DNA from: Botryllus schlosseri
Lineage: Eukaryota
DNA: 64,000 bases
Assembly (NCBI GenBank): GCA_051294905.1
Contig: CM119372.1
Span: 20,338,001 to 20,402,000 of the forward strand
Direction: 5' to 3'
This document shows, in pieces, positions 241 through 26,441 of this stretch. The first letter of the stretch is position 1, and every line of letters starts with the position of its first letter. The notes beneath the pieces were generated by a model. It did no database searches, was not told where the DNA came from, and saw only the letters and a list, made by a program, of their open reading frames with translations. The translations under genes and the position numbers were made by a program.

Positions 241-478
241 CCGGCGACATTTCGAAACGACCATCGCCACAAGAGATCGGGGTTTCAGTTTGTCATATCG
301 GTAACATTTTGAAACGGTATCGCGCAAAGTTATTGACGTCGATTCAGTTGGTCATATCGGTGATATTTTGAAACGGCGTCACCACAAGGCTATTGACGTC
401 GCTCTCAGTTAGCTGTATCGGTAGCATTTTGAAATTTTCATCACCACAAGACTATTGACATCGATTCAGTTGGTCATG
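241..478. repeat. Tandem repeat, ~60-bp unit, about 4 diverged copies, directly upstream of the orphan ORF
   Basis: Recurring GTCATATCGGT(A/G)A(C/T)ATTTTGAAAC...TATTGACGTCGATTCAGTTG-like units starting at ~292, 351, 412 and 473. Confidence 0.8.
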
Positions 479-757: not shown

Positions 758-1574
758 ACGCTCTATTGATATATAGTTCACTTTCACCATCGTGCGAATA
801 ACCCATGTTACGGTTCCATGTTTGTGTGTCTGTATGTCATGCTTCAGATTGACTCAGAGTCATTGCAATGTGGCTTATTGGTATTGTTATCGGGTGACAT
901 TCGATCTACATCAAAGCTACCGGCTATGATAATGTCTGTGGATCTATGTTTGTATACCAACACATTGCATGCAATGTCACACACCTCCATTTACGCGTAT
1001 ACTGGTGTGGGCAAACAAGCGCGACGTATGTCTGGATGGTATTTTTTCGTGGAAACACAGGGTGTAACATGTTTACTTTGAATATTGTTCATTGGTTTAA
1101 CGATTCACAGTTGATATCCGGATCCGGTTACGTACTTTATCAATTCCGATTTCAAACTGAATGTCGAGACATACATTGACCAATAAAGACACAATATAGT
1201 AAACATGCGGGAGGAAAACTCGACCAGGAATTGTTATCGCGATGGGTGACATAAATCCAACCGTTTTCCGAACACCGTTATCCACATACCAACCGTCGTC
1301 AAGGAGGTGTTTTATTCAGACATTTTGACTCTGGAAAATCCAAAGCACGAACCCGGACATCACAGAACTATCGAAGCCTATTGTCCAATTTTCCAAAACA
1401 TGTATTTCGGTGTACAAGAGCATATTGTATGTGGTTAACCGATGATATTGATGTGATACGACCGATGGAGTATACTCTGAAACCGGTAGTCTGTGTATAT
1501 TTCCGTCACTGTTCGTTGTAATCTATTTCAAACTATCGTCAATACAACAAATACCAAATTGTCAGGTGTGTTTG

Positions 1575-2320
1575 TCAGATTTCAAAATGAAAATGGTTTT
1601 GTTACTCTAGGAAAAGCTAGATGACCAAGAGAAAATGTATTGTTACACTGGGTAAACGTCAGATCCCCAAAGGAAAATGATATTTTTACTCAGGTAAACG
1701 ACGCACCACCAAGTGAAAATGGCTTGTTGCTCAGGAAAAAGGTTTGTTACCCGGGGAAAAAGGTTTGTTGCCCAGAGAAAAAATGTATTTCCAAGTGAAA
1801 ATGGTTTGTTGCTCAGTTAAATGATAGTTTCCAGACGAAGGGGGTTTGTTACCCCAGGAGAAAATGATTAGTTACTCTAGGTAAAAGTATTTTTCCAAGT
1901 GAAAATGTATTGTTACACTGGGTAAACGCCGGATCTCCAAAGGAAAATGATATTTTTACTCGGGTAAACGACGGACCCACAAGTGAAAATGGTTTGTTGC
2001 TCAGGGAAAAAGGTTTGTTACCTGGGGAAAAAATATATTTCCAAGTGAAAAAGGTTTGTTGCCCAGAGAAAAAATATATTTCCAAGTGAAAAAGGTTTGT
2101 TAACCAGAGAAAAAATATATTTCCAAGTGAGAAAGGTTTGTTACCCAGAGAAAAAATATATTTCCAAGTGAAAAAAGGTTTGTTAGCCGAGGAAAAAAAA
2201 ATATTTACAAGTGAAAATGGTTTCTTACTCTGGGTAAACGTCAGATCTCCAAAGGAAAATAATATGTTTAGTCAGGTAAACGATGGACTGGCAAGTGAAA
2301 GTGGTAATTTTACATAGGTA
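1575..2320. repeat. Minisatellite, ~42-bp unit built of ~21-bp halves (CCAAGTGAAAAAGGTTTGTTACCCAGAGAAAAAATATATTT), inside copy A
   Basis: Directly visible periodicity; homologous shorter arrays in both arms of copy B. Confidence 0.9.
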
Positions 2321-5300
2321 AACGTCGTTGGTTCAGTGTCGTTGGTCTTGTTAAACGTTATCGCTTGACGTCGGTATACTATTACGAGTGTGAAAAGGCT
2401 ATGCACGTCTTGTGCGGAGTATCGCGACAGTGAACATATTTTTGGTGTGACGAAACAAGATCGTTGTTTACATGTTAATGCATTTCGATTACCGAGTAGC
2501 TGTACAACAGAGAGGAGTCTACAGTTAGTTCGTGCTGTATGTCCCGACGAAAACCACAAGACCACATGTAAATCTATTAGCACAACTCGATGATGTTGAT
2601 ATAGTGTTACTTGAATTAATTATTACCTATTTACACAACATAAAAATAAAAATTCATGTCGTAGTAAGTTTCTTGAACTCATGCTTGATGAAAACGAATG
2701 GTGACAAGTATGCGTTTGTGTTTGAGTGAAAAAAAAATTATTTAGAGTAGTGACAGTTTGTGACCAACGAATGCAAATCGATCATGATATTACAATATAC
2801 GCTTTCGTCAACATAACGACTTGGTGTAGAAATACTTTCACGTTTTTTGAATAACTGGATTCTCGAGACTTGTTACTTGTACGATCTACCGTTGGTGTGC
2901 AAACTATAACGACCATTTTGTATGATAGTATGTTTTAGTTGTCAGGACAACCATACGATGACTCACCACTTTTCGTTAGCAAAGTAGATTGATTTGTGTG
3001 TAAGATGTAAGCACCGTAACTAGAAAACATATGTACTCTGTTGTTGGAGTAGCTATGATTTATTGTTATGACATGGAGATATCCTGAAGCCTTGGTTTGT
3101 TGTCTTACGAAAGATGAAGCGACCTCGGTGTCGTAAATTGTGTTAACTAAACTCGTCCACAATTTTGCTGGACTTACACATGGTATTCGCATACTGTACA
3201 CATACAAACTTTTGTGTAAACAACTCTGATGTTTCTGTTAGTACTAGTTCTGTGTTGAACTATTTGATTATTAAGATACATGAACAACCATTCAGACAAT
3301 AAAGTTCTTGTGACATCGAAACAGTTTGAAAGTGTCACCAATCATTGCGTATATGTTCGTAGCATGAGCGAATGTTTTCGTGTAACATGAATATATTTCA
3401 TATGTCTTCGGTAAGAAATGGGTTATGTGGGATAATAATTAGTATCGTAAACTTGTTGTGTTTGATTGCATACTTTTTTAACATTGTTTGTTGTTGAAAG
3501 ACGGGCGAGTTTACATTTACATTAAGCAGAGCAACTCAAGTAATAAATTTTACTCGTTTGAAAATCGACAACGGAAAAAATACCGATGAATGGAGTAACA
3601 GTAATAATATGTGTGGTATATTATTTTTAGTGATATGCAATCAATCTTTTAGGCATAACTTGTCAAAAATTTATCATGTCATAGTCGGCTGTTATGAATT
3701 GGAAAGAAATGTACTTCGATTATCACGATGATGGAAATTAAGATCAATGCAGTATTTCGGAAATGGATGTGTATCGTTTGGTGTGGTCCCCAGTCACTAA
3801 ATGTCAGTTAGTTAAACGATACATTTACAAGTTTACCGAAATCTTGATTTACAAATAACAGCTTGATGATGTAAAGCTCAACCACGCAAATGTGTTCATT
3901 GCAAAGTATTTGACACAAACAAAATATCGAATGGAGACTTCGGTTTCATTACCAAGCTAGTGAAAATTGTTTTCTGTTGGCCAGGTAGGACACATTTGAC
4001 AAACATCGTCCACATTGTATCTTCGTGATGGTAACGACTTTCAGTGGCTTGGTTTCATGTCGGGAATTATTATTTGAGGGTTCAAGAACAATTTCAATCA
4101 ATACTACAAATGAACAACAATACAAAACACGTTTAGCAAATAACAGTGTAGCAAGTACTTTTTCGATATTACGAGTGTTGAGCACTGGACACTTCTAGTT
4201 GAATTGGATGCATCTAACAAACATATCACAATTTACTTTTGCAATAATCAAAGTCTTAGAGTGTATAACCTCGCGATATTTTACATTTAGCACGCACAAT
4301 GGGGAGTTACTGAAATGATTAAGAATTGATCGCTAGCTTCGAACGGTACTCGATACTCAAAGTGATATTTTCACACTCTGTAAAGTGCATATGTTTAAAT
4401 TCTCTGTCACAAATTCCGACAATAAATCGTTGGATTCAATAGTAACGATATTGTGATATACTGATTCTACACTTAGTCGTTTCAATTACCCGTTGGGAAT
4501 CGGGATAATAAAGCATTTTGTATCGGATGTTCAATGTATGAATACTGGAATTATTACATCTTTAGTGCTGTTTATCGCAAACGATAGATTTTAATAATTG
4601 TACTGATTGTTGAATGTAATAATACCGATATTGTCGTTTCATCTTTAGTCTTGGTTACTGGAAATATTTTCTGATATCCGCGATACGCAGAGTGATTTTT
4701 ACCAAGGTGGAGTAATTTTCCCATCAAGAACATTTCAGACAAGTATAGTTTTACAGCCAAATATGTTAATAACATTGGTACTGAAAAGTTTGTTGCTGTC
4801 ATAACATTTACCACAACGCGGGGTCTAATTAACGCAAATAATTTAATAATCAAGTCATGATCAACTATTACATATGTCAAATCAATGTGTCAATCCTTAT
4901 GTTTACAGCATGATAACTTCGAATATAACACCAGCGTTCGATTGTAAGAAACTACGTTGGTCAGATATTCAAATCTCGTATACTCAAATGTAATGTGTTA
5001 ATCTCAAGTCACCTGCACCGAGTAGAAATTACTTTTATCTTACAAAATATACCGCATAGTAATTTCTTGGTCTTGCGGCATAGTAACGACTTTTACAGTT
5101 GAACAAAAAAGACGAGTTGGTGGTATATGCCTAAAACCGAACTTGATATGTGGGTGATTGTGGGTTGTGATTGTGGGTTGTAGTGATTACTTGTGTAGTC
5201 TTGTCTACTTTTCGTATGGACACTTTTTGCTTTGGTTCGGTGAGTTACAAACGGATTGACTTGACAAGGTTTTTGTATTTTACTCTTTTGTTGATGGCGA

Positions 5301-6689
5301 GATGTTAAAATGTTGAGATGTCATAGTGATAATATTTCTGAAACTCTCTTTGTCAAACGTAAAGACAGGTCGCGAATAGAGTTGTAATGTTTCATTACTT
5401 GTTTCGAATCAATGTGCGTATAATCTCTAAATATGACTGGGTTGAAAGTTGTTAGTCATGTTTGTCAATCTATTTCAATTCAGACTATGTCAAAGTCCAA
5501 ATATTTCATTTTGGATTATCTGGATTTAACTTTAGAACACCGCGCGAATGGATTCCGACGCCGCGCTATACCATTTTTGATGATAAGGACTCGAGGATTT
5601 TCATGATAGAGTTGACAAGTGATAAGATGCGTGTTTTTGTTAAGAGGTTGATTTCAAGTTAATAAAGACAATAACTGTATAATGCGCATACTTGTGATTC
5701 CTGATTCTTGTAGAATTATAGTTGGTATTGATTCTATAGATGTGAAAACGGTGCGAAGTGTCAAAACATATAGCGATCGCGTGCAAGTGACAAATTGTTG
5801 GTTTTCGAATCACGGTCTGTGCTGGTACTGGTATTCATTACTTATTACTTGATAGCAACAACCATCGACATATTACACTGTAGCGACTGGGATGTATGTA
5901 ATGGCAAGACGCGAGAAATGGCTATGTCTTTGGTGTTATCTTGTGAGCGATCGGGGGATTTGTAACCTATTTCACACCTTTTTGAAGTGTTGGTTTGTGA
6001 ACGCGGCTATTGTTGATATTCGAATCACCGTCTACGCCGGCTCTGGGACAAACTAATTACCAAAACATTACCATATGCCAGATTTAGCAAACTATCCCAC
6101 ACCTTTTCGAACTGTTAGTTTGTGAGCGGGGTTATTGCTGATATTCGAATCACCGTCTACGCCGGCTCTGTGGTAAACTAATTACCGAAATATTACGTTG
6201 TCAACGATCGGCATGTATGTAACAGCGAGTCGCGAGCGATGGTTATGTCTTAGGTATTATCTTGTGAGCGGTCGCGGGATTTTACCAATATTTCACACCT
6301 TTTTGAATAAGCGTTCACTTCACAAAGGATTAGGGTTAGAGCGGAAATAAGTGGCAATTTGTCGCTATTCAAGTTACCGACACTGGCGGTCTGTTATTCG
6401 TTACATATTAAATCTTACGACTGAAATCAAGCTCTGTCCCAAACTGCTTACGAAAATTTCACCGCGTGAGTGATCGATATGCCTGTAACATCAAGTCGCG
6501 TATGTCTGAGACATTATCTTGTCAGCGATCGCAGGGTTTGCAAACTATTTCACACCTATTTGGAGTGTTAATATGTGAACGCGGCTATTGTTGGTATTGG
6601 AATCGCCGTCTACGCCGGCTCCGTGGTAAACTAATTACCAAGCGACTGATTCCTAGATTTAGCAAACTATTTCACACCCTTTTTGGTGA

Positions 6690-7140
6690 AAGTACGACAT
6701 ACCGCTAGCATTCTATCAACGAAAGTACGAATCATCGCCGCACCCATAAGAATAACGATATATCGAAGTCGCATTCACCGCAAACGTTGGGATTAACTCG
6801 AATCGGTCATATTTAATAATTTGTAATATACACATTAACTAAGAATCAATCACGTGACTATTTACTATTCCTGATACCTATTCAACGCCGTGCGAGATAT
6901 GCCTGAAAGTGCGAATCACGACCACGAGTTCTCATTACGATTCACCGCCGCAGCCTATACCTGAAAGTACGAGTCACGACCCCGAGTTTTCAATACGAGT
7001 CACCGCCGCAGCCTATACCCGAAAGTACGAATCACGACCGCACCCATAAGAACCCATTACGAGTCACCACCACAAGGGGGGTCTGAAAGTACGAGTCACC
7101 ACCCCCGGTTTTCAATACGAGTCACCACCCCGCCATAAGA
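6690..7140. repeat. Subterminal direct repeats (GAAAGTACGA(A/G)TCAC... motif) of copy A
   Basis: GAAAGT(A/G)CGA recurs at ~6689, 6721, 6905, 6963, 7021, 7085, just inside the ACTACT end. Confidence 0.75.
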
Positions 7141-7436
7141 ACCCCTGCCACCTCACGACCGATCTACATAACTACTATTGTTACATCACAAATATTTTGA
7201 CCGCAAACGAAACGATCACAGTTGACGATGTCGTACCAGTAGCAGATTAATCTAATAGCAATGTGTCTAAGTTTCTTAGACGACTCAATACTTACGTTGC
7301 GCATTGCTCAGTTTTGCCAACCCTCTTGTATGATTTAAATCGAACAAATATAGTCTGTGCGTTTATATTCTTACGGATGTGTAGATGGGTAGTGTAGTCC
7401 AGTGCTCTTCAACCGGGGTTTTCGTACACCCTAGGG

Positions 7437-8396: not shown

Positions 8397-8999
8397 CCCT
8401 AGGGTGTACCAGAATTTTCAAAGGGTGTACCACTCGGATGGGGTGTACAGGGGTGTACCAGATCCGAAATACGATGGCTAGCTATCACACAGGCAGGTTT
8501 ATGCGTCAGTAGGCCTACAGGTTGACGCACTGGTTAATGAGCAATATGGTAGTGCTCTTCAACCGGGTGTTTCGTACACCCCACGGTGTACCCTTATTTG
8601 TAAAGCGTGTACCACTCGGATCGGGTCTACAGGGGTGTACCAGATCCACATTATGATGAACCGATGATACGATGACTATAGCTATCACATTAAATACGCC
8701 AGTTTATGCTTCAAAACAGATTGACTGGATGCGTAATATAGTACAATGTGATGTCATAAGCAAATGTTTCTAATCATTTAACTTTTGGTAATGGACTTAA
8801 TACTGCCTTTTCGAGTAGAGTAGGGTAGAGTTAAGCATGTGTTCAGCTTGCGATATCTGTCTGATGATTCTCGAGGAAACCACCGCTACAGCACGGACAT
8901 TTTGAATTGGTGCTTCCTGCGGCCAGCTTATGAATAGCGCAGGATACATGAGTAGTTAGTATGATCGCTCGTGACGGGCCATTGGTTCTTATGGATGCA

Positions 9000-9310
9000 C
9001 CCGACCGGTGCCGCGAAACTCGTCCTGAACCGGTGACCCTTTCAGACCCCCCTTCCACCCGACCGGTGCCTGGGTTGGTATAGGCATCTCTCGACCGGTA
9101 ACCCTTTTCGGTATAGGGATCACTCGACCGGTGCCTCGAAACTCGTCTTGAACCGGTAACCCTTTTCGGTATAGGGATCACTCAACCGGTGCCTCGAAAC
9201 TCGTCTTGAACCGGTGACCATTTTCGGTATAGGGATCACTCAACCGGTGCTAGCATAGCCATCTCTCGACCGGTAACACTATTCGGTATAGGGATCACTC
9301 AACCGGTGCC
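9000..9310. repeat. Subterminal ACCGGT-containing tandem repeats (~59-bp unit), mirrored at ~25728-26040
   Basis: Repeated ACCGGT(G/A)...CGGTATAGGGATCACTC(A/G)ACCGGTGC. Confidence 0.85.
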
Positions 9311-12300
9311 GTGGTGGTAATTCGTACTTTCGGGTATAGTCAACTCTCGCGCTGTGTTGAAGAAGTATCAGGAATAGTAAATAGTCACGTGATTGATTCT
9401 TAGTTAATGTGTATATTACAAATTATTAAATATGACCGATTCGAGTTAATCCCAACGTTTACGGTGAGTACGACAATGATATATCGTTATTTTTATGGCG
9501 GGGGTGGCATGCGGCTATTGTGTCTTATGGGTGCGGCCGTGAATCGCCCTTTCGGGTATAGGTATCTCTCGCCCGGTGTTGAATATGTATCAAGTAAATA
9601 GTCATGTGATTGGTCCTTAGTTAATGTGTATATTCCAAATTACGGCGAGTACGACAATGATATATCGTTATTCTTATGGACGCGGCGATGATTCGTACTT
9701 TCGGGTATAGACTGCAGGCGGAATGTCGTACTTTCAACAAAAAAGGCGTGAAAATAGTTTGCTAAATCTAGGAATCAGTCGCATGGTAATGTTTGGGTAA
9801 TTAGATTACCACAGTACCGGCGTAGACGGCGATACGAATATCAACAATAACCGCGTTCACAAACTAACACTTCAAATAGGTGTGAAATATATAACGAACC
9901 CCGCAATCGCCCACAAGATAATGTCTCGGACATAACCATCTTTAGTGAGTTAGTGTTACAGGGATATCGATCACTCACGCGGTGAAATTTTCGTAAGCAG
10001 TTTGGCACAGAGCTTGATTTCACTCGTAAGATTTAATAAGTAACGAATAACAGACCGCCAGTGTCGGTAACTTGAATAGCGACAAATTGTCACTTATTTC
10101 CGCTCTAACCCTAATCCTTTGTGAAGTGAACGCTTATTCAAAAGGGTGTGATATCATTTTCAAATCCAACGACCACTCACCGGATAATGCTTCAGACAAT
10201 CCCTCATACCCGCTCACAAGGTAATATTTCGGTAATTAGTTTGTCACAGAACCGGCGTAGACGGTGATCGAAAACCAACAATTTGACGCTTTCTGGTGGT
10301 CGCTATATGTTTTGACACTTCGAACAGTGGCTGAATTTAGTTGCACGCTAAGAATTATGAGAATATTCAATCAATGTGTCAATTTGTCAACTTGAAATGA
10401 AACTTACTACACAACTCAAGTTGATTCGTGTCTGAATGTGTTAATTCGGTACAATTCTGATTATTTTGAGAAATCTTTTGATTCGACCGTAACCCGAATA
10501 TTACTGACGCCGACTTTCAGCCGCATCGAATTATTCGCACATTCCGCGCCGCTGTTTTCACACTTATAGAATCAATACCAACTATAACTCTACAAGAATC
10601 AAGAATCACAAGTATGTGCATTATACAGTTATTGTCTTTATCAACACGAAATCAAACTCGTAACAAAAACACGCAACTAATCATTTGTCAGCTCTAACAT
10701 TATCAAAAAATTCCAGTATTGTTGATTGAAAATCCTCGAGTCCTTGTTATCAAAAAGGTTGTAGTACGGTGTCGGAATCCATTCGCGGGGTGTACAAAAG
10801 CTAAATCCAGATAATCCAAAATGAAATATTTGGACTTTACCATAGTGTGAATTGAAATAGGATTGACAAACATGACTACCAACTTTGATCCAGCCACATT
10901 TCAAGATTATACTTTGAAACAAGTAATGTAACATTACAACTCTATTCACGATCCTGCTTTCCGTTTGTCAAAGAGATATTTTAACATCTTACCATACTCA
11001 AAAGAATTATTCACAACATTAACAATTGTTAAAAATCTAGTTTTCACTTACTTGATTATATCACTGCAACTCATAAATTTGAATTAATTCATCCTGGTTG
11101 TATTCGTATGCTCGGTCTTTTTTATTCAATTGTAAAGGTTGTTACTATTCTGCAGACAAAGTATTTACTAATCGGTGCATATACGATTTGACTTGGACAT
11201 ATTATATTTTGAGTATACGAGATTTGAATGTCTGAACAATAACTGAGAATTAATTTATCACAATTAAATCCGTATATTACAGCGTAAAAGATATTGGGAT
11301 GTCAGCAACTCTTTACGGTCGTAGTTACAACCACATTAACTAATCTACCCAGGCAACTCGTCATGATCATTCCTGAAATCAACACTAACACGACCACTGA
11401 CTTGAGTTAACCGCGAAACAGCATCAAGTTTTAAACCCGCTTACAGCTGACGGATTATTCGAATGCATCGATGGAGAATATTATTGAACTCGTCGGTATT
11501 GTCACTTCAACAAATTACACCGACTGCGAAAGTTAATATCGAATGGTAAGACTTGATCACATATTTGTTGATCACAGACATGACAAAAAAACATTACCGA
11601 GATTTTATAAACTAGTCATATTACTCTACACATCTATCAATATCAAAATGTGAGTCATCCAATTTTTCTACTAAAGTAACATTTCACTTTCGGATTCGGA
11701 TTCGGTATAGTCATACAAATTGTATTAAATCCAACATCAAAACAAAAGGAATTTTTCAGTTTATTGAAATCAAATCATTCGTCTTCGACTTGTGCTTTTT
11801 TTAGATTACCCGCGACAATTCGTTTCGAGTGAGTTGTAACCAAAGTCAAGGTATCTTTGTGTCCACAGATATGGAAGATGAATATAGCTAACACAATCAC
11901 GAATCGACGTTTCAGAGTATTTCACGGGTGTAATAAACTTGTTAGTGTCGCCTATCTCAAAGTACGCACGCGTTCGATTTCCATACCGACTGTTTCGATG
12001 TTTAGGATTCACTTACAATAACCACGGGTGAGGATTTAACATCGATGTCGTTACTGTCGGAATTTGTGACAGAGAATTGAAACATATGCACTTTACAGAG
12101 TATGAAAATATCACTTTGAGTATCGAGTACCGTTCGAAGCTAGCGATCAATTCTTAATCATTTCAGTAACTCCCCATTGTGCGTACTAAATGTAAAATAT
12201 CGCGAGGTTATACACTCTAAGACTTTGATTATTGTAAAAGTAAATTGTGATATGTTTGTTAGATGCATCCAATTCAACTAGAAGTGTCTAGTGCCCAACA

Positions 12301-12516
12301 CTCGTAATATCAAAAAAGTACTTGCTACACTGTTATTCACTAAACGTGTTTTGCATTGTTGTTCATTTCTAGTATTGATTGAAATTGATTTTGAACCCTC
12401 AAATAATAATTCCCGACATGAAACTAAGCCGCCGAAAGTCGTCACCATCACAAAGAAACAATTAGCACGATGATTACTAAATGTGTCCTATAGTTAGGTG
12501 TACTGGAATTATTTGT

Positions 12517-12547
<31 letters not shown>

Positions 12548-14204
12548 GATCAGAGAAATTGGAAATTTTTCCGTTGTCATTCGCTAAAGTAAATGTCATC
12601 ACAATACTCTGTCACTAAAAGACGTTACTTGGACGTGCTTGAATTCTAGACGTAGTTCTGATTTACCCAACACAAGACCCAAGGACAACCCTAGTTTCAG
12701 CCGAACACAGATATCCAAAATATCACACACTTCGCTATTCCTAAAGCACAAACACACGATACAAAATAATACTTGTTGTGTTGTTGCGGCATCATCACTC
12801 AACAATATCACCCTCAATACAAATGATGTTTATATGTAACATGCTATTGATTTGAACCACACCCACCTGACGGAAGAGGATTTACTCAATCTTTACAAAA
12901 TGGATATTGACCAACATCACATCACCGGATTGTATCTGTTTCGTTGGATACGAGTTATGTTAGTTTAACAGTAAACAAATTTCACCCTCTTGGATTATGA
13001 ACTCAATGCGTTAGCAGTCATTCAATATTTTGTTTGTGTCAACTAGTTACTTGGTATGTTACTCCACAACTCTTACAAAAGTACGAAGGATATTAACATC
13101 GCACTAAGTAATTAACTTTACTCGATATTCTCGCATTACGAAACTAGAGAATGGTTGGTTAGACTCTACAAACTGTTTCGATATCACAAGACCTTTATGG
13201 TCTGAATGGGTGTCCATGTGTCTTAAGAACCAAATAGTTCAACACAGCACTAGCACCAACAGAAACATCAGAGTTGTTTACACAAAAGTTTGTATGTGTG
13301 CAGTATGCGAATACCATGTGTAAGTCCAGCACAATTGTGGTATCCATCCGGGTTTAGTTAACACAATTTACGACACCGAGGTCACCTCATCTTTCGTAAG
13401 ACAACAAACCAACCAAGGTTTCAGGATATGTCCATGTCATAGCAATAAATCAGCTACTCCAACAACAGAATACATATGTTTTCTAGTTACGGTGCTTACA
13501 TCTTACACACAAATCAATCTACTTTGCTAACAAAAAGTGCTGGGTCATCAAGTGATTGACCTAACAACAAAACAGCTAAACGTACTATCATACAAAATGG
13601 TCGTTATAGTTTGCACACCAACGGTACATCGTACAAGTAACAAGTCTCGAGAATCCAGTTATTCAAAAACGTGAAAGTATTTCTACACCAAGTCGTTATG
13701 TTGACGAAAGCGTTTATTGTAATATCATGATCGATTTGCATTCGTCGGTCGCAAAATGTCACTACTCTAAATAATTATTTTTCACTCAAACACAAACGCA
13801 TACTTGTCACCATTCGTTTTCATCAAGCACGAGTTCAAGAAACTTACTTACTACGACATGAATTTTTATTTTTATGTTGTGTAAATAGTTAATAATTAAT
13901 TCAAGTAACACTATATCAACATCATCGAGTTGTGCTAATAGATTTACATGTGGTCTCGTGGTTTTCGTCGGGACATACAACACGAACTAACTGTAGACTC
14001 CTCTCTGTTGTACAGCTACTCGGTAATCGAAATGCATTAACATGTAAACAACGATCTTGTTTCGTCACACCAAAAATATGTTCACTGTCGCGATACTCCG
14101 CACAAGACATGCATAGCCTTTTCACACTCGTAATAGTATACCAACGTCAAGCGATAACGTTTAACAAGACCAACGACACTGAACCCGCGACGTTTAACTA
14201 TGTA

Positions 14205-14665
14205 AAATTACCATTTTCACCTGGAGGCCTGCCGTTTCCTGTAGTAACAAACCTTTTTCACTTGGAAATATATTTTTTCTCTGGTTAACAAACCTTTTTC
14301 ACTTGGAAATATATTTTTTCTCTGGGCAACAAACCTTTTTCACTTGGAAATATATTGTTTCTCTGGTTAACAAACCTTTTTCACTTGGAAATATATTTTT
14401 TTTCATTAACAACAAACCATTTTCACTTGGTGGTCCGTCGTTTACCCGAGTAAAAATATCATTTTCCTTTGGAGATCCGGCGTTTACCCAGTGTAACAAT
14501 ACATTTTCACTTGGAAAAATACTTTTACCTAGAGTAACTAGTCATTTTCTCCTGGGTAACAAACCCCTTTCGTCTGGAAAACTATCATTTGCCTGAGTAC
14601 CAATACCGTTTTCACATGGAAATCTATCTTTCACCAGGGTAACAATATCATTTTCGTTTTGAAAA
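14205..14665. repeat. ~42-bp minisatellite in the left arm (mirror copy ~20380-20840)
   Basis: Repeated AACAAACCTTTTTCACTTGGAAATATATTTTTTCTCTGG. Confidence 0.85.
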
Positions 14666-15244
14666 CTGACAACCACACCGGACAATTTGATATTTTTGTA
14701 TATTGTTACAACGGACAGTGACAAAATACACACCAACAACGACGCCGATACATTTGTCTAATCAAATATTCACTTGCTCTGATGCACCCCATCAAAATCA
14801 TTGGTTACTCACATACAATAACAATGTGCTGTTGTACATCGACATGTATGTTTTCGGAATTGGCGAATAAAGGGGTTTCCGATATGTCCGTGATGTCCGG
14901 GTTCGTGCTTTGGATTTTCCAGAGTCAAAATGTCTGAATAAAACACCTCCTCGACTTTGGTAACTGGTTGATAAATGGATAGTGGTGTTCGCACAACGGG
15001 TGAAGTTATGTTCCCCATCGCGCTAACAACTCCGGGTACTTGTGAGTTTCCTCAGGTCTGTTTACTATATTGGGTCTTTACTGATCAATACATATTGCTC
15101 CAGTCAGCTGAAACCGGATCACTAATATGTGTGTGGGGGCCTGATCCGGATATTCACTCATGAACCAAAGACCAATATTCAAGTAAACATGTTACAGACC
15201 GTGTTTTGTCTCCATGAAAAATACCAATGCATACACCATCACAT

Positions 15245-18200
15245 TATAGATAACTAAGGTAAACCGTAGATGCGACACTCGCGAGCATCACGTAACGTCA
15301 CGCTCCAATTATACTCTACGGCACTGTTGTTGTTTTGCTTGGCGCTTATGCAGCAGGAGGCAGATTTCAGGATTAGGATGGTAATATCTATCCATGGGGT
15401 ATGTTTAGCGAGTAGCTGCTCCGTATGGTTACTAACCGAGCTTATTGGATCCATGCTACACAATCTGTGCTAGGAAAACGAGCAATCGAATACAATTTTA
15501 AAGTCAATAAATACGGCTGCCCGAAGCGGATTTCCAGTATCTCAAGATTGAAGTTCCTTGGTGTAAGGTGTCGCATTGAAAGTGATGACTCGGACGTCTA
15601 ATAATCTATCCGCATTTCAGCTGACGCAGTCTCGATCCCTTCAAATTCTGTAGATACCGGTCTGTTGCTTAACATGGAATCACGCCGTATCTAATAACAA
15701 TAGGAATTTTTATTACTTGACAGACGATTATTTGTTTGAATCTAATTGCAACTGTTGCGACTTGGCCTAGGCAGGCAGATTTGATTGAGACTACTCACTG
15801 CTGATCTTATTCAAGATCTGCTGAATAATGTACAATGATATGGAGGACAGGAGAGTGACGACAAGGAAGCAAGTGGCAACTGGTGATAACTGATAAGAGT
15901 CTGGAACCTAGTGCATTGCTCAGAATAGCCACAATACTACTGCCTACCATCTATCTTCATTCAATAAGTCTGTAATGGAATCAGGCTGTCCCAATGCGGC
16001 AAGCAGAAGATTGATGGAAGTCGATGTGAATTTCAGTCGAAGCAGGTGATAACGCAGAAGCATTTCACGCATGGGACTATTTCTATGAAAGTTTATCAAG
16101 GATCAAATTTATCAAACGTTTTGCTCGGCACAATGAAGCTAATGAGTCCAGTCAAAGAAGAAGAAACTTTAAGGAGGAAAATTTTGTGCGTTGTGAGCAA
16201 AAGTCTTCACTACATTGCATGGGCACTTTCAACAACACATGTGGCCCTCTCGGAGGAGAACACCGCGGTTTGGAAATTGTAAAATCTGCATTGCAATTTC
16301 CAACCACGTGGCTCCTTCATTTCATTTATGAAGAGGAAGGCTTGGCCAAATATTCATATTTTGGAGGCAAACAAACCCGATACTGAAGTAGAAATGATGT
16401 TAATTTCATCTCAAACGCAAGTAAAAGTAGCGATTTCCAATAAGGCTGAGTTTAGAAGTAGTCAAATATCATAACCATGCTAGTAAGTCTTACAAGTAGG
16501 TTACTTGAGTACTTTGAAAAAGTAGAAGTATTTCGTCACTATCCACCTGTTGGAATCTGCCAAAATATATCTGACTGTGACATAACCAACAGTCCATGTG
16601 TTTCTGTTTTATGTGCCATATTTCGTGATTTATTTTCTATATCATCATGAAGGAAGCAATAAAATGCGATTTTACCAAATTTGTCTCACCTGGGAGAGCC
16701 TAACAAGGATTACAGAACCGAATCAATGGTCATAAGTCACAGAGTAAGGGAGTGTCTATATTTCCATCAAACCGAAATACATAACAAATAAGGCAGCATC
16801 AATAACGACATGGAAGATATAGCCTACACATGCGCAATACTAGGATAGGAATGAGTGATGTGACCTTATCATTCAACTTGTCGGATCACACCCACATCAA
16901 ACATGTTGTACACTGTCTCATCTGATTGTATAACTAGTCATAAACATATATGATTAGAATAATGTAAGGGTTAAGTAGGTTAACAGTAATGATATGACGA
17001 CAAGATGAAGATTTTCTACATCCATCATACGACTGTTCACGGATATATGTTGTGACAGTGAATTACAAATGAGAGACCCCGAGTGGACAATAGATTTCGA
17101 GCCAGGTTACTATTAGATGCAGATAACTATAGATTTGCCCGTTGACAACGATCTTGTAGTATGAGAGTGAAAATATTTGTGTGTAACTATTATCTTGTAG
17201 AATTCAATGCTTAATGAGGGTAGGTGACAATCTGGTACGTAGAGGTGCTCCTACATCTGAAAGCAGACGGGCTGCGAATCCCGCCGGTTGAACTGCATGT
17301 TTTGAAAATACTGGGTGTCAAAAATATGGCAAATAGAAGCCGCCTTACGGTAACAAATCATCCAGTTAAATTATGACAAATGTGAAAAATCATTTCACTG
17401 ACAGCTTAAACGATGAAATTGACATTGCGCTGATTTTATGGAGTTTTGTGCTTCTGAGATAAATTCCAGCGGTGATTTGGATATCTGACTGTGGAGTTAC
17501 GCTAGTCACTCCATCATGCAGGCATTCATTGAGTCTCTTTGGCAAAGCTGTGCAATAATAGAGGGATCATCAATGATGTTACGTAGGTCTTATGTCACAC
17601 AAATTTCACAACCTTTACTTTCATCCTCTTCGACTGGACTCAGCATCGTCATTTAGTTTCATTTTGTCGAGAAGAAACTTGGTCCTTGATAAATTTTTAT
17701 AGAAATAGTCCCATGCATGAAATGCTTGGTGGGATCACCAGCTTTGACTAAAATTCGTACCAAAATCCATCAATTTTTTGCTTGTCATATTCGGATAGCG
17801 TGATTCCATTACTGACTTCTTGAATGAAGATAGCTGGTAGGTGGTATGATAGTGACCCTTGTATAAATTTCATATCCAGCAACCACTTGCTTCTTTGCCA
17901 TCATTGTCCTCTATGTCATTGGACATTATACAGCAGATAACATGGTCAGTGAGCAGTGACTTTCAATCAAATCCACCTTCATCGGCCAAGTCACAACGGT
18001 TACAAGTAGATTCAAAGAATTTATCCTCTGTCAAGTATAACAATAATTCCTATTACTACAAGGCGCGATTCCATGCTAAGCGGCATGACGGTATCTACAG
18101 AATTTTAAGGGGCCGAGCCCGCGTCAACTGAAATGCGGTTTCTTATTCTGATTGATATTATACCAACACGTCATTAGTAGTATAATTACTTTCAATACGA

Positions 18201-18521
18201 CACCTCGGAACTTCTATCTATAGAGAAACAAGAAACACGCTTCGGGCAGCCGTATTTAATGGCTTCAAAGTTGTATTCGATTGCTCGTTTTCCTAGCACA
18301 GATTGTGTAGCATGGATCCAACAACCTTGGTTAGTAACCATACGGAGCAGCTACTCGCTAAACATACCCCATGGATAGATATTGCCATCCTAATGCTGAA
18401 ACCTGCCTCTTGCTGCATAAGCGCCAAGCAAAACAACAACAGTGCCGTAGAGTATAATTGGAGCGTGACGTTACGTAATGCTCGCGAGTGTCGCATCTAC
18501 GGTTTACCTTAGTTATCTATA
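15245..18521. mobile_element. Foldback DNA element with long TIRs and 7-bp TSD (possibly P/Galileo-like), no recognisable transposase
   Basis: Termini TATAGATAACTAAGGTAAACC / GGTTTACCTTAGTTATCTATA; TSD ATCACAT (15238-15244, 18522-18528). The empty site is present in the right arm at ~19795-19810. Outer ~280 bp near-identical; diverged inverted similarity continues ~0.9 kb inward. Superfamily assignment is an inference from TSD length. Confidence 0.85.
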
Positions 18522-18726
18522 ATCACATACAAGTAACGTCACGATTGTTCACAAGTATTCGCGTAAACGAGGTGTACATACAATGTGTCGGTGTACAAAC
18601 ATCATGGAAAACAAATTCATGTTCTCAAGTATCATCATGCGACGACTCTGTACATTCAATGTGGGCATAGATGACACACGACATGATACAATGGACAGTG
18701 CATTATGTATACCGATATATTCTCAG

Positions 18727-19002
18727 TCAAATATGCGAACCGTGTACTATCACGCATCCCGATTTTCGCTGAATATCCACAACACCAACAAATCTGTACA
18801 TTTCTTTTCCCTCGACCTCGACGATAGAGTTGTCATCCCAATGTACCAATCGAGTGTATGGTTCATCAGGTGTAAAATCCAAATCAAATGTCACCAAGGT
18901 ATCGTTTTTCATTTTCAATATTTCCACCGCTGCATCTTGTCTGTGTCGTAAAACAACGGTGTGGGGCCAGAGGAATCTATGGACAGTTACGCGTAGTCCC
19001 AT
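18727..19002 (-). CDS. 91-aa orphan protein in the unique core of copy B (unknown function)
   Basis: Intact ATG-TGA ORF, homologous without gaps to ORF 476-757 (shared VLRHRQ, FTPDEP, KEMYR, IVHGSHI motifs). Confidence 0.65.
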   Translation of the reverse strand: MGLRVTVHRFLWPHTVVLRHRQDAAVEILKMKNDTLVTFDLDFTPDEPYTRLVHWDDNSIVEVEGKEMYRFVGVVDIQRKSGCVIVHGSHI

Positions 19003-19651
19003 ATTTACTCGTGGATATACTCAGGTAACGACAACGCTTTCTCAGCGGTCTGCGTGGGTGAACCGTTTCAATACGTAGCTGGATCAACTAGACCAAAAGT
19101 TTCCAACCGTGATTTATGTTGACCTGTCGAGTTACGAGATAGCACCCTCTTGCGGTGTGATTAACACGAAATAAGCCTTCAACTCACAGAGACACACCTT
19201 GGAGTACATTATCTAATCGTAATCGAACTCGAGATTCACACACACACAGAGTCCCTGTTTACGATTTCAATCCGGAGTCACTGCTCACGATGTTTATCTG
19301 TAGTCGTTATGTGGGAGTAGCGACATCCGACATATTCATCGCGTGAAAGATTGATAACGACGGTGATCGCCAAATACATAAAATTAGGTGAAACACTGCG
19401 GTCTCAGCAAAAAAGTTTGCAGGTTAGGACGACCAATACGTGGAGGGATTGAGCGAGTTACGCAACCCGATTATGTCGAAGTCTGGATCGCGATACAAGT
19501 CTACCTGAGAATCCGAACAATCTTGCAAAATCAAGGTGTGAACCCGTGAAAGAACTGTACTCGTGTGAGGTTCATTTTTCACAAGTTGGGTGGAGGTCGA
19601 TTCATACTAAGATCGTGTTACGTCCAATTATGGCAGCTTGTCTGTCCCCAA

Positions 19652-22600
19652 GTCATCTATGCCCACATTGAATGTACAGAGTCGTCGCATGATGATACTT
19701 GAGAACATGAATTTGTTTTCCATGATGTTTGTACACCGACACATTGTATGTACACCTCGTTTACGCGAATACTTGTGAACAATCGTGACGTTACTTGTAT
19801 GTGATGGTGTATGCATTGGTATTTTTCATGGAGACAAAACACGGTCTGTAACATGTTTACTTGAATATTGGTCTTTGGTTCATGAGTGAATATCCGGATC
19901 AGGCCCCCACACACATATTAGTGATCCGGTTTCAGCTGACTGGAGCAATATGTATTGATCAGTAAAGACCCAATATAGTAAACAGACCTGAGGAAACTCA
20001 CAAGTACCCGGAGTTGTTAGCGCGATGGGGAACATAACTTCACCCGTTGTGCGAACACCACTATCCATTTATCAACCAGTTACCAAAGTCGAGGAGGTGT
20101 TTTATTCAGACATTTTGACTCTGGAAAATCCAAAGCACGAACCCGGACATCACGGACATATCGGAAACCCCTTTATTCGCCAATTCCGAAAACATACATG
20201 TCGATGTACAACAGCACATTGTTATTGTATGTGAGTAACCAATGATTTTGATGGGGTGCATCAGAGCAAGTGAATATTTGATTAGACAAATGTATCGGCG
20301 TCGTTGTTGGTGTGTATTTTGTCACTGTCCGTTGTAACAATATACAAAAATATCAAATTGTCCGGTGTGGATGTCAGTTTTCAAAACGAAAATGATATTG
20401 TTACCCTGGTGAAAGATAGATTTCCATGTGAAAACGGTATTGGTACTCAGGCAAATGATAGTTTTCCAGACGAAAGGGGTTTGTTACCCAGGAGAAAATG
20501 ACTAGTTACTCTAGGTAAAAGTATTTTTCCAAGTGAAAATGTATTGTTACACTGGGTAAACGCCGGATCTCCAAAGGAAAATGATATTTTTACTCGGGTA
20601 AACGACGGACCACCAAGTGAAAATGGTTTGTTGTTAATGAAAAAAAATATATTTCCAAGTGAAAAAGGTTTGTTAACCAGAGAAAAAATATATTTCCAAG
20701 TGAAAAAGGTTTGTTGCCCAGAGAAAAAATATATTTCCAAGTGAAAAAGGTTTGTTAACCAGAGAAAAAATATATTTCCAAGTGAAAAAGGTTTGTTACT
20801 ACAGGAAACGGCAGGCCTCCAGGTGAAAATGGTAATTTTACATAGTTAAACGTCGCGGGTTCAGTGTCGTTGGTCTTGTTAAACGTTATCGCTTGACGTT
20901 GGTATACTATTACGAGTGTGAAAAGGCTATGCATGTCTTGTGCGGAGTATCGCGACAGTGAACATATTTTTGGTGTGACGAAACAAGATCGTTGTTTACA
21001 TGTTAATGCATTTCGATTACCGAGTAGCTGTACAACAGAGAGGAGTCTACAGTTAGTTCGTGTTGTATGACCCGACGAAAACCACGAGACCACATGTAAA
21101 TCTATTAGCACAACTCGATGATGTTGATATAGTGTTACTTGAATTAATTATTAACTATTTACACAACATAAAAATAAAAATTCATGTCGTAGTAAGTAAG
21201 TTTCTTGAACTCGTGCTTGATGAAAACGAATGGTGACAAGTATGCGTTTGTGTTTGAGTGAAAAATAATTATTTAGAGTAGTGACATTTTGCGACCGACG
21301 AATGCAAATCGATCATGATATTACAATAAACGCTTTCGTCAACATAACGACTTGGTGTAGAAATACTTTCACGTTTTTGAATAACTGGATTCTCGAGACT
21401 TGTTACTTGTACGATGTACCGTTGGTGTGCAAACTATAACGACCATTTTGTATGATAGTACGTTTAGCTGTTTTGTTGTTAGGTCAATCACTTGATGACC
21501 CAGCACTTTTTGTTAGCAAAGTAGATTGATTTGTGTGTAAGATGTAAGCACCGTAACTAGAAAACATATGTATTCTGTTGTTGGAGTAGCTGATTTATTG
21601 CTATGACATGGACATATCCTGAAACCTTGGTTGGTTTGTTGTCTTACGAAAGATGAGGTGACCTCGGTGTCGTAAATTGTGTTAACTAAACCCGGATGGA
21701 TACCACAATTGTGCTGGACTTACACATGGTATTCGCATACTGCACACATACAAACTTTTGTGTAAACAACTCTGATGTTTCTGTTGGTGCTAGTGCTGTG
21801 TTGAACTATTTGGTTCTTAAGACACATGGACAGTGTCCAATCAGACCATAAAGGTCTTGTGATATCGAAACAGTTTGTAGCGTCTAACCAACCATTCTCT
21901 AGTTTCGTAATGCGAGAATATCGAGTAAAGTTAATTACTTAGTGCGATGTTAATATCCTTCGTACTTTTGTAAGAGTTGTGGAGTAACATACCAAGTAAC
22001 TAGTTGACACAAACAAAATATTGAATGACTGCTAACGCATTGAGTTCATAATCCAAGAGGGTGAAATTTGTTTACTGTTAAACTAACATAACTCGTATCC
22101 AACGAAACAGATACAATCCGGTGATGTGATGTTGGTCAATATCCATTTTGTAAAGATTGAGTAAATCCTCTTCCGTCAGGTGGGTGTGGTTCAAATCAAT
22201 AGCATGTTACATATAAACATCATTTGTATTGAGGGTGATATTGTTGAGTGATGATGCCGCAACAACACAACAAGTATTATTTTGTATCGTGTGTTTGTGC
22301 TTTAGGAATAGCGAAGTGTGTGATATTTTGGATATCTGTGTTCGGCTGAAACTAGGGTTGTCCTTGGGTCTTGTGTTGGGTAAATCAGAACTACGTCTAG
22401 AATTCAAGCACGTCCAAGTAACGTCTTTTAGTGACAGAGTATTGTGATGACATTTACTTTAGCGAATGACAACGGAAAAATTTCCAATTTCTCTGATCGT
22501 GTGTGTGTGTGTGTGTGTTTTACAAATAATTCCAGTACACCTAACTATAGGACACATTTAGTAATCATCGTGCTAATTGTTTCTTTGTGATGGTGACGAC

Positions 22601-25600
22601 TTTCGGCGGCTTAGTTTCATGTCGGGAATTATTATTTGAGGGTTCAAAATCAATTTCAATCAATACTAGAAATGAACAACAATGCAAATCACGTTTAGTG
22701 AATAGCAGTGTAGCAAGTACTTTTTTGATATTACGAGTGTTGGGCACTAGACACTTCTAGTTGAATTGGATGCATCTAACAAACATATCACAATTTACTT
22801 TTACAATAATCAAAGTCTTAGAGTGTATAACCTCGCGATATTTTACATTTAGTACGCACAATGGGGAGTTACTGAAATGATTAAGAATTGATCGCTAGCT
22901 TCGAACGGTACTCGATACTCAAAGTGATATTTTCATACTCTGTAAAGTGCATATGTTTCAATTCTCTGTCACAAATTCCGACAGTAACGACATCGATGTT
23001 AAATCCTCACCCGTGGTTATTGTAAGTGAATCCTAAACATCGAAACAGTCGGTATGGAAATCGAACGCGTGCGTACTTTGAGATAGGCGACACTAACAAG
23101 TTTATTACACCCGTGAAATACTCTGAAACGTCGATTCGTGATTGTGTTAGCTATATTCATCTTCCATATCTGTGGACACAAAGATACCTTGACTTTGGTT
23201 ACAACTCACTCGAAACGAATTGTCGCGGGTAATCTAAAAAAAGCACAAGTCGAAGACGAATGATTTGATTTCAATAAACTGAAAAATTCCTTTTGTTTTG
23301 ATGTTGGATTTAATACAATTTGTATGACTATACCGAATCCGAATCCGAAAGTGAAATGTTACTTTAGTAGAAAAATTGGATGACTCACATTTTGATATTG
23401 ATAGATGTGTAGAGTAATATGACTAGTTTATAAAATCTCGGTAATGTTTTTTTGTCATGTCTGTGATCAACAAATATGTGATCAAGTCTTACCATTCGAT
23501 ATTAACTTTCGCAGTCGGTGTAATTTGTTGAAGTGACAATACCGACGAGTTCAATAATATTCTCCATCGATGCATTCGAATAATCCGTCAGCTGTAAGCG
23601 GGTTTAAAACTTGATGCTGTTTCGCGGTTAACTCAAGTCAGTGGTCGTGTTAGTGTTGATTTCAGGAATGATCATGACGAGTTGCCTGGGTAGATTAGTT
23701 AATGTGGTTGTAACTACGACCGTAAAGAGTTGCTGACATCCCAATATCTTTTACGCTGTAATATACGGATTTAATTGTGATAAATTAATTCTCAGTTATT
23801 GTTCAGACATTCAAATCTCGTATACTCAAAATATAATATGTCCAAGTCAAATCGTATATGCACCGATTAGTAAATACTTTGTCTGCAGAATAGTAACAAC
23901 CTTTACAATTGAATAAAAAAGACCGAGCATACGAATACAACCAGGATGAATTAATTCAAATTTATGAGTTGCAGTGATATAATCAAGTAAGTGAAAACTA
24001 GATTTTTAACAATTGTTAATGTTGTGAATAATTCTTTTGAGTATGGTAAGATGTTAAAATATCTCTTTGACAAACGGAAAGCAGGATCGTGAATAGAGTT
24101 GTAATGTTACATTACTTGTTTCAAAGTATAATCTTGAAATGTGGCTGGATCAAAGTTGGTAGTCATGTTTGTCAATCCTATTTCAATTCACACTATGGTA
24201 AAGTCCAAATATTTCATTTTGGATTATCTGGATTTAGCTTTAGTACACCCCGCGAATGGATTCCGACACCGTACTACAACCTTTTTGATAACAAGGACTC
24301 GAGGATTTTCAATCAACAATACTGGAATTTTTTGATAATGTTAGAGCTGACAAATGATTAGTTGCGTGTTTTTGTTAAGAGTTTGATTTCGTGTTGATAA
24401 AGACAATAACTGTATAATGCACATACTTGTGATTCTTGATTCTTGTAGAGTTATAGTTGGTATTGATTCTATAAGTGTGAAAACAGCGGCGCGGAATGTG
24501 CGAATAATTCGATGCGGCTGAAAGTCGGCGTCAGTAATATTCGGGTTACGGTCGAATCAAAAGATTTCTCAAAATAATCAGAATTGTACCGAATTAACAC
24601 ATTCAGACACGAATCAACTTGAGTTGTGTAGTAAGTTTCATTTCAAGTTGACAAATTGACACATTGATTGAATATTCTCATAATTCTTAGCGTGCAACTA
24701 AATTCAGCCACTGTTCGAAGTGTCAAAACATATAGCGACCACCAGAAAGCGTCAAATTGTTGGTTTTCGATCACCGTCTACGCCGGTTCTGTGACAAACT
24801 AATTACCGAAATATTACCTTGTGAGCGGGTATGAGGGATTGTCTGAAGCATTATCCGGTGAGTGGTCGTTGGATTTGAAAATGATATCACACCCTTTTGA
24901 ATAAGCGTTCACTTCACAAAGGATTAGGGTTAGAGCGGAAATAAGTGACAATTTGTCGCTATTCAAGTTACCGACACTGGCGGTCTGTTATTCGTTACTT
25001 ATTAAATCTTACGAGTGAAATCAAGCTCTGTGCCAAACTGCTTACGAAAATTTCACCGCGTGAGTGATCGATATCCCTGTAACACTAACTCACTAAAGAT
25101 GGTTATGTCCGAGACATTATCTTGTGGGCGATTGCGGGGTTCGTTATATATTTCACACCTATTTGAAGTGTTAGTTTGTGAACGCGGTTATTGTTGATAT
25201 TCGTATCGCCGTCTACGCCGGTACTGTGGTAATCTAATTACCCAAACATTACCATGCGACTGATTCCTAGATTTAGCAAACTATTTTCACGCCTTTTTTG
25301 TTGAAAGTACGACATTCCGCCTGCAGTCTATACCCGAAAGTACGAATCATCGCCGCGTCCATAAGAATAACGATATATCATTGTCGTACTCGCCGTAATT
25401 TGGAATATACACATTAACTAAGGACCAATCACATGACTATTTACTTGATACATATTCAACACCGGGCGAGAGATACCTATACCCGAAAGGGCGATTCACG
25501 GCCGCACCCATAAGACACAATAGCCGCATGCCACCCCCGCCATAAAAATAACGATATATCATTGTCGTACTCACCGTAAACGTTGGGATTAACTCGAATC

Positions 25601-26087
25601 GGTCATATTTAATAATTTGTAATATACACATTAACTAAGAATCAATCACGTGACTATTTACTATTCCTGATACTTCTTCAACACAGCGCGAGAGTTGACT
25701 ATACCCGAAAGTACGAATTACCACCACGGCACCGGTTGAGTGATCCCTATACCGAATAGTGTTACCGGTCGAGAGATGGCTATGCTAGCACCGGTTGAGT
25801 GATCCCTATACCGAAAATGGTCACCGGTTCAAGACGAGTTTCGAGGCACCGGTTGAGTGATCCCTATACCGAAAAGGGTTACCGGTTCAAGACGAGTTTC
25901 GAGGCACCGGTCGAGTGATCCCTATACCGAAAAGGGTTACCGGTCGAGAGATGCCTATACCAACCCAGGCACCGGTCGGGTGGAAGGGGGGTCTGAAAGG
26001 GTCACCGGTTCAGGACGAGTTTCGCGGCACCGGTCGGGTGCATCCATAAGAACCAATGGCCCGTCACGAGCGATCATACTAACTACT
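19652..26087 (+). repeat. Right inverted arm of copy B (6436 bp)
   Basis: Begins GTCATCTATGCCCAC (reverse complement of 18661-18675) and ends ACTAACTACT followed by the TSD. Confidence 0.95.
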
Positions 26088-26441
26088 TACATGCTTGGGC
26101 AGCCAGGGGGTCGAGTTTGCGAACCACTGCGTTAGATGGTGGTCCAGTAACCTCGATCCCTGATTCGTATTTAGCATTTCCTATACGTTGCAGCCTTGCT
26201 CAAGTGTTCATTCTTATCTCGGCTAGGCCAGGGGTGCTCAACCAGCGGACGTACGGCCTCATTCAGCCGCAATTTTGCGACCTTCTACACATATTTAAAT
26301 TAGCGTGTGTTGGCGGCCGTCATTATGCAACCAATTGTTGCTGGTTCGAGTCTCGGATCTGCCATGTTTCTATGTGTCGGAGGTTTATCTAGGCTCCTCG
26401 TCGCCGACCCCTGTTAACGTAGCGTCTTGAAAAGCCTAGAA

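What the first reader, a model, noticed from the sequence alone, without database searches (positions are those of the whole stretch)
18640..19680. Junction asymmetry suggests a copy-back (snap-back) origin, like a defective interfering viral genome
Seen: copy A reads ORF -> CCATGTTTGTGTGTCTGTATGTCATGCTTCAGATTGACTCAGAGTC (~816-861) -> arm. Copy B on the minus strand reads ORF -> TCATGTCGTGTGT|GTCATCTATGCCCACATTGAATGTACAGAGTC across the core/left-arm boundary, so that junction is native. The right arm starts abruptly at 19652. Inference: one end of the parent element was replaced by a reverse copy of the other end, as expected from template switching or panhandle repair during protein-primed strand-displacement replication (the model proposed for Polintons and established for adenoviruses).
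Basis: partly seen in the sequence, partly recalled or inferred. Interest (0 to 1): 0.7.

Follow-up and report, generated by a model that had tools for sequence, protein, structure and literature searches.

The report
Drifting neck of palindromic Polinton hitchhiker
This junction is the inner neck of a common mirror-image mobile element with the ends of virus-like Polinton transposons; it looks like a boundary that has slowly shifted while the two arms kept copying each other, not like the preserved scar of one copy-back accident.

Summary
The quoted sequences are real, and perfect arm identity does start at 19652. The element (8951-26087, 13.85 kb without a nested insertion) has AGTAGT..ACTACT ends, a 6-bp target duplication, two 6.4-kb arms and a 976-bp core with one conserved 91-aa ORF.

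The asymmetry argument fails. Any inverted repeat around a unique core has unlike junctions, and copy A shows only one of them. The right arm is also not abrupt: the roughly 40 bp before 19652 resemble copy A's junction better than the supposedly native left junction does, and public contigs show necks shifted by 8 and by 40 or more bp. The same neck occurs in 4 of 4 runs laid, so it is a family trait. Copy A is a gene-less sister, not a parent.

What does support fold-back copying is maintenance: both arms share the same allele at 9 of 9 listed sites, 8 of them minority alleles. One-step copy-back origin stays possible (about 20%) but untested: no genome or helper was available. The scan has already noted this family many times elsewhere in this genome.

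The parts
8945..8950 (+). left 6-bp target-site duplication TACATG
8951..26087 (.). whole element B, ends AGTAGT..ACTACT; 13,853 bp without the nested insertion and its duplication
8951..15244 (-). outer part of left arm; 10 substitutions and 2 indels against the right arm
15245..18521 (.). nested foldback-type insertion in the left arm only; ATCACAT duplicated at 15238-15244 and 18522-18528 (register ambiguous: 3, 5 or 7 bp)
18522..18675 (-). inner part of left arm, 154/154 identical to 19805-19652
18676..19651 (.). 976-bp unique core (loop); not itself a decayed palindrome
18676..18726 (-). left neck: 51 nt between ORF stop and arm, about 27 nt shorter than in copy A; a variant family member departs from it at 18685
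18727..19002 (-). intact 91-aa ORF of unknown function; 55% identical to the copy A ORF, dN/dS 0.32
19275..19355 (-). non-coding core block 83% identical to copy A 25-102
19611..19651 (+). probable relic of a formerly longer arm: resembles copy A 801-835 (shared TGTTACG at 19616 and 806)
19652..26087 (+). right arm, 6,436 bp, non-coding, with tandem repeats
26088..26093 (+). right 6-bp target-site duplication TACATG
1..7176 (+). copy A: diverged sister element, cut by the window start; part of core, ORF, 6.3-kb arm from 836, ends ACTACT
476..757 (+). 93-aa ORF of copy A, homologue of the core ORF
801..835 (+). copy A neck segment that resembles B's right neck

Best explanation
The stretch is the loop and neck of one copy of an abundant, stable family of non-autonomous palindromic elements with Polinton/Maverick ends. 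SHOWN: ends, 6-bp duplication, arm and core layout, no core genes, the same neck in several runs, neck variants, arms alike at family-variable sites. INFERRED: a helper Polinton's protein-primed polymerase copies the element by strand displacement; a single strand folds into a 6.4-kb stem with a 1-kb loop; one arm repeatedly serves as template for the other (template switch or end repair), and the helper integrase inserts the product. Such copying can begin only where the arms still match, so changes at the innermost bases fall out of the arm and the neck drifts: about 19611-19616 or further in, then 19644, then 19652 (this order is inferred, not rooted). The junction at 19652 is therefore the current homogenisation limit, not a fossil breakpoint. 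The long arms most likely grew by the same process acting repeatedly; an old single jump cannot be told apart from this junction.
For: Ends and duplication match the Maverick motif in PMC8097293 (passages). Left-junction joint 18676/19652 in 4 of 4 runs laid (12, 1, 1 and 3 contigs; shorter side 42, 30, 30, 27 nt); right junction bridged in X5 (record 21, 19596-19733) and covered for at least 28 nt each side in X1 and X6. Variant joint 18685/19644 in 1 X15 contig; an X6 contig enters at 19641 with 30 preceding letters that are, by hand count, 20/30 identical to B 19611-19640 and 21/30 to A 801-830 (binomial tails 1e-5 and 2e-6). Anchored tests. Arms differ by 10 substitutions and 2 indels in 6.3 kb but are 66-93% identical to copy A; at 9 of 9 listed arm sites both arms carry the same base, and at 8 of the 9 most X1 depth shows another. 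Contrast: the nested foldback element's repeats fall from 99% to 57-77% identity inward. No Polinton domain among 91 ORFs of 55 aa or more.
Against: The neck variants rest on one contig each, from runs laid at 85% likeness, and only 30 of the 109 loose letters in X6 were shown. The direct A-versus-right-neck signal is modest (about 1-4%), A versus X6 was placed on the shared motif after seeing it, and A versus B-right is only 12/30 ungapped (p 0.11). 131 difference rows and 445 loose ends were not shown. X1 may be the source sample. No helper, parent or replication intermediate was seen. Host gene conversion could also homogenise arms.
Confidence: 0.6

Rival explanations
1. One reading: one ancestral copy-back event replaced the far end of a longer parent with a reverse copy of the near end; the re-initiation point was near 19611-19616 or further in and has eroded since. 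The strict form, a breakpoint at 19652 in this lineage, is very unlikely.
For: Stem-loop layout like copy-back genomes (PMC6140465, passages). ORF continuity on one side only. Similarity to A ends near 19616. The core is not a decayed palindrome. Doubling 7.4 kb to 13.85 kb puts the element in the 12.7-24.6 kb range of intact Mavericks.
Against: A copy-back of a helper's end should carry helper genes within 7.4 kb, since vertebrate TIRs are 46-1,447 bp; 0 of 78 ORFs of copy A and of B's core plus right arm hit a Polinton domain. No listed loose end behind 19651 shows a parent continuing (445 rows hidden). The neck is shared across runs and has shifted.
Confidence: 0.2
2. Internal deletion of an autonomous Polinton that already had very long TIRs with this inner boundary.
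For: Some butterfly polintons have about 2-kb TIRs that contain genes (10.1101/2025.02.07.637071, passages). Unlike junctions are what this model predicts. Internal skips inside the core occur in the family (5 listed joints with both ends in the core).
Against: Reported TIRs reach 1.4-2 kb, not 6.4 kb. An autonomous element with two such arms would spend 12.9 kb on non-coding repeats. No deletion seam was found in the core, whose two homologous blocks are colinear with copy A.
Confidence: 0.1
3. Host-driven arm growth and conversion in integrated copies (break repair using the other arm or another copy), as proposed for the foldback transposon Galileo, without viral-type replication; the ends may even belong to another transposase family.
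For: Galileo non-autonomous copies extend their TIRs by recruiting adjacent internal sequence (PMC3573991, passages). Arm identity between A and B is a mosaic of 66-93%, as recombination would give.
Against: After integration the arms were not corrected: the 3.3-kb insertion, 10 substitutions and 2 indels remain on one side. The nested foldback element in the same locus is not homogenised inward. Ends and 6-bp duplication are Maverick-type.
Confidence: 0.1

Closest known systems
Polinton/Maverick elements (PMC8097293, PMC10748475; passages read)
   Same: (AGT)2//(ACT)2 ends, 6-bp target duplication, total size 13.85 kb
   Different: No pPolB, integrase, ATPase, protease or capsid gene; 6.4-kb repeats (93% of the element) against 46-1,447 bp
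Copy-back / snap-back defective viral genomes (PMC6140465; passages read)
   Same: Stem-loop genome with identical origins at both ends and no replication genes
   Different: Described there mainly for negative-strand RNA viruses; here integrated, inherited DNA with a near-fixed, drifting neck and a conserved gene in the loop; no parent or breakpoint identified, interference unshown
Galileo two-TIR derivatives with recruited TIR sequence (PMC3573991; passages read)
   Same: Non-autonomous, mostly TIR, internal tandem repeats, TIR boundary moves between copies
   Different: TIRs up to 1.3 kb, P-element family, 7-bp flanks; here 6.4-kb arms, 6-bp duplication, Maverick ends
Butterfly polintons with gene-containing 2-kb TIRs (bioRxiv 10.1101/2025.02.07.637071; passages read)
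   Same: Polinton inverted repeats extended inward over formerly unique sequence
   Different: Those keep core genes; repeats three times shorter
Adenovirus panhandle ITR repair; palindromic subgenomic phi29 molecules; palindromic yeast killer-plasmid derivatives (recalled; no paper on them was read, searches gave no usable passage)
   Same: Protein-primed strand displacement in which one end templates the other
   Different: Transient laboratory products, not a multi-copy endogenous family

Membership tests
Polinton/Maverick | (AGT)2//(ACT)2 or (AG)3//(CT)3 end motif | tested here: met
   AGTAGT at 8951, ACTACT ending 26087; copy A ends ACTACT at 7176 (motif)
Polinton/Maverick | 6-bp target-site duplication | tested here: met
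   TACATG at 8945-8950 and 26088-26093
Polinton/Maverick | pPolB, integrase and virion genes (autonomous element) | tested here: not met
   No ATG ORF over 178 aa in the window; 0 of 91 stop-to-stop ORFs of 55 aa or more hit such a Pfam family; fragments shorter than 55 aa were not scanned
Polinton/Maverick | TIRs of about 0.05-2 kb | tested here: not met
   6.44-kb arms
Polinton/Maverick | Ends shared with, and mobilised by, an autonomous element of the same genome | not testable with these tools
   No genome is held for this window; earlier scan notes claim it, unchecked
Copy-back defective viral genome | Part of the genome repeated in reverse complement as a stem with a loop | tested here: met
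Copy-back defective viral genome | Breakpoint and re-initiation site mappable on a standard (parent) genome | tested here: inconclusive
   No parent found; copy A is a sister; 19652 is not the original boundary
Copy-back defective viral genome | Independent junctions at varied positions among molecules | tested here: not met
   Of 12 listed joints 3 switch strand: the standard neck (4 of 4 runs), a neck 8-9 bp away (1 contig) and one in the arm (1 contig, depth 3.9) (only 1.7 kb laid)
Copy-back defective viral genome | Helper dependence and interference with the helper | not testable with these tools
   Only the absence of replication genes is shown
Galileo-type foldback transposon | P-element-family ends and 7-bp flanking duplication | tested here: not met
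   6-bp duplication and AGTAGT ends; Galileo features

The most novel reading that the evidence does not exclude
These elements are a DNA copy-back defective lineage of a Polinton that became a permanent, integrating satellite: each replication round rebuilds one arm from the other, the drifting neck records where the polymerase switches template, and the doubling keeps a 7.4-kb replicon at helper-genome size. The family would then be a natural in-genome record of the fold-back step so far only proposed for Polinton replication.
Probability: 0.3. Interest if true: 0.75.

Novelty: new variant of a known kind. Interest (0 to 1): 0.4.

Why it matters
Polinton replication through a folded-back single strand is a proposed model (as summarised in PMC4196379, passages). 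A family with 6.4-kb arms that stay identical within a copy while copies diverge gives countable predictions: where conversion tracts begin, which arm is the template, and how the neck moves. The junction asymmetry itself carries little information; the neck variants and the shared arm alleles do. Library searches (listings only) showed no paper describing such palindromic Polinton derivatives; the library lacks most subscription papers and Repbase was not searched. Within this scan the family is already well covered.

Tried and rejected
Search for relatives with flanks: viral contigs by protein and by three DNA patterns gave nothing; metagenome contigs gave 2 weak loci (41% over 41 aa), of which L001 was inspected and has no matching ORF of 60 aa or more and L002 was not inspected, both set aside as chance; genome contigs gave L003, a 27-bp match inside an archaeal-type gene with no further similarity, chance. 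Core as a decayed palindrome or second ORF copy: no signal. Relic arm beyond 19616: none. Function of the 91-aa protein: no Pfam hit above cut-off, no Atlas hit for the copy A protein, only P0004 among 1.84 billion representatives, model pLDDT 46 with no viral fold match at E 0.001. Rfam: 0 hits in 1-27000. Arm-to-core depth ratios of 1.4-5.1 were not used, as contig depth is no copy number. Polarising the 10 arm differences with copy A was uninformative (4 match the right arm, 5 the left, 1 gap). That P0002-P0005 lie on contigs of 922-1,075 bp, about core size, is only a hint, since such contigs are usually short. No loose end listed behind 19651 is not proof that no parent exists. Assembly artefact: rejected, given the target duplication, the one-sided insertion and junctions in other runs. 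The original Polinton paper was not available; the model is cited from a review. Supplements were not opened; that of the bioRxiv preprint could bear on polinton TIR lengths.

Full report
1. Observation. A self-comparison of the window shows 19799-26087 inverted against 15244-8951 at 99.67% and 19652-19805 against 18675-18522 at 154/154. The left arm is split by a 3,277-bp insertion at 15245-18521. The core is 18676-19651. The element starts AGTAGT at 8951, ends ACTACT at 26087 and is flanked by TACATG on both sides; this is the commonest end motif and the duplication length of vertebrate Mavericks (PMC8097293, passages). Without the insertion it is 13,853 bp, 93% arm. It is a real insertion: the arms differ by 10 substitutions and 2 indels, and both junctions occur in public contigs.

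2. What copy A is. Copy A (1-7176) ends ACTACT, has a 6.3-kb arm 66-93% identical to B's, shares the core ORF (55% protein identity, dN/dS 0.32, differences by codon position 31/17/38) and a non-coding core block (25-102 against 19355-19275, 83%). None of 91 ORFs of 55 aa or more from A (38), the nested insertion (13) and B's core plus right arm (40) hits a Polinton domain; two sub-threshold unrelated Pfam hits were the only output. Copy A is therefore a sister, not an autonomous parent. It shows only the ORF-side junction; its other junction would lie some 230-270 bp before the window (inference). Comparing B's right junction with A's ORF-side junction is not like for like: a mismatch is expected under copy-back, deletion or gradual growth alike.

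3. The right arm is not abrupt. Anchoring the three sequences at the arm start and reading inward, A's first 40-60 nt match B's right neck better than B's left neck in 6 of 6 settings: random window stretches reached the right-neck score in 2-12 of 300 trials and the left-neck score in 16-26 of 300; with shuffles, 13 of 400 against 160 of 400. At 100 nt the left side wins in 2 of 3 schemes because the ORF end is included. B's left neck is 51 nt against 78 nt in A, and the missing piece includes TGTTACG, which B keeps on the right at 19616 (A: 806; 11 occurrences in the window on both strands). Beyond 19616 no similarity remains. This signal alone is modest. Public contigs add to it (four of 24 listed runs laid on 18676-20380 at 85% likeness). 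One X6 contig joins the reference at 19641; its 30 shown preceding letters are 20/30 identical, ungapped, to B 19611-19640 and 21/30 to A 801-830 (counted by hand; binomial tails; the A register was chosen on the shared motif). One X15 contig joins 18685 to 19644 on opposite strands (41-nt side, depth 14.6), so there the arm includes 8 more bases; X5 record 18 and X15 records 9 and 10 also leave B's sequence at 18685-18686. So sequence that is core in B is arm, or ORF-side neck, in relatives.

4. The neck is a family trait. The joint 18676/19652 appears in 4 of 4 runs (12, 1, 1, 3 contigs; sides 42, 30, 30, 27 nt), which carry three organism labels. The right junction is bridged in X5 (19596-19733) and covered by at least 28 nt on each side in X1 and X6. 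Of 12 listed joints 3 switch strand: two at the neck, one in the arm at depth 3.9. No listed loose end lies behind 19651, but 445 loose ends were hidden. X1 may be the source sample. Four further homologues of the ORF (68-93%) exist in public assemblies. Earlier scan notes report several hundred such palindromes and about 55-60 polymerase-bearing Mavericks in this genome, a tunicate by one note; I could not check these.

5. What does point to fold-back copying. At the 9 arm positions listed (131 further rows hidden) both arms of B carry the same base, and at 8 of the 9 most X1 depth shows another base. Variants private to B's lineage are thus present twice, which needs arm-to-arm copying after divergence from the bulk of the family. 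The correction is not happening in the chromosome now: the insertion and 12 small differences persist. The nested foldback element, by contrast, has repeats of 99% at the tip and 57-77% inside.

6. Mechanism. Polintons are proposed to replicate by protein priming on a racket-like single strand (PMC4196379, passages). For a 93% palindrome the displaced or nascent strand offers a second template for each arm. A polymerase that leaves the core and switches onto the first arm, or a broken end extended on the other arm, rebuilds one arm from the other. The switch needs matching bases, so changes at the innermost bases escape correction and the neck retreats, while a switch at a short match further in would extend it. 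This explains identical arms, a near-fixed neck and its 8-40 bp variants. All steps of this paragraph are inferred; adenovirus and phi29 precedents are recalled, not read. How the arms first became long is open: stepwise extension (precedents: Galileo; 2-kb gene-containing polinton TIRs), one old copy-back jump (about 0.2) or deletion of a long-TIR parent (about 0.1). The lack of helper genes in 7.4 kb of arm plus core argues against a recent jump from an autonomous element.

7. Comparison and novelty. It has the ends, scar and size of a Polinton/Maverick, but fails the gene and TIR-length tests, so it is at most a non-autonomous derivative. It works like a copy-back defective genome in layout (PMC6140465, passages), but parent, breakpoint and interference are not shown, so I do not file it as one. 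Five library searches (listings only) showed no description of such palindromes; coverage is partial. The scan has found the family repeatedly on other DNA of this genome.

8. Verdict. Observation partly confirmed; interpretation partly supported (maintenance plausible, origin not shown, asymmetry argument invalid). New variant of a known kind; interest 0.4.

Noticed in passing
window 15245-18521: Nested foldback-type element with about 0.9-kb inverted repeats, 99% alike at the tips and 57-77% inside; it inserted after B did (one arm only). No Pfam hit above cut-off in 13 ORFs.
   Followed up: partly
window 49075-50728, 40760-41395, 55578-56133: Three further, unrelated palindromic elements (87%, 82%, 69% self-identity) with different ends.
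   Followed up: no
window 20095-20155 and 1303-1363: About 60 bp almost identical between copy A and B inside an arm region that is otherwise about 66% alike; a sharp local depth peak in all four runs. A candidate protein-binding or cis-acting site.
   Followed up: no
window 836-7176 against 19652-26087: Arm identity is a mosaic (66%, 85%, 93%, 82%, 78%), suggesting recombination between subfamilies.
   Followed up: partly
window 18727-19002 (-) and 476-757 (+): Orphan 91-93-aa all-beta-predicted protein under purifying selection, kept in the loop of an otherwise non-coding element; function not found.
   Followed up: partly
window 20056/20098 (run X15): One low-depth contig folds back inside the arm: a possible loop-less variant or an error.
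   Followed up: no
window 7385-8400 and 26094-26130: Short elements with CAGTGG-type ends and a fragment resembling a hAT transposase tail (label recalled; Pfam found nothing); B seems to have inserted into one.
   Followed up: no
window 53619-54610: AACCCTAAT-rich tandem array flanked by inverted 16-bp-unit arrays.
   Followed up: no
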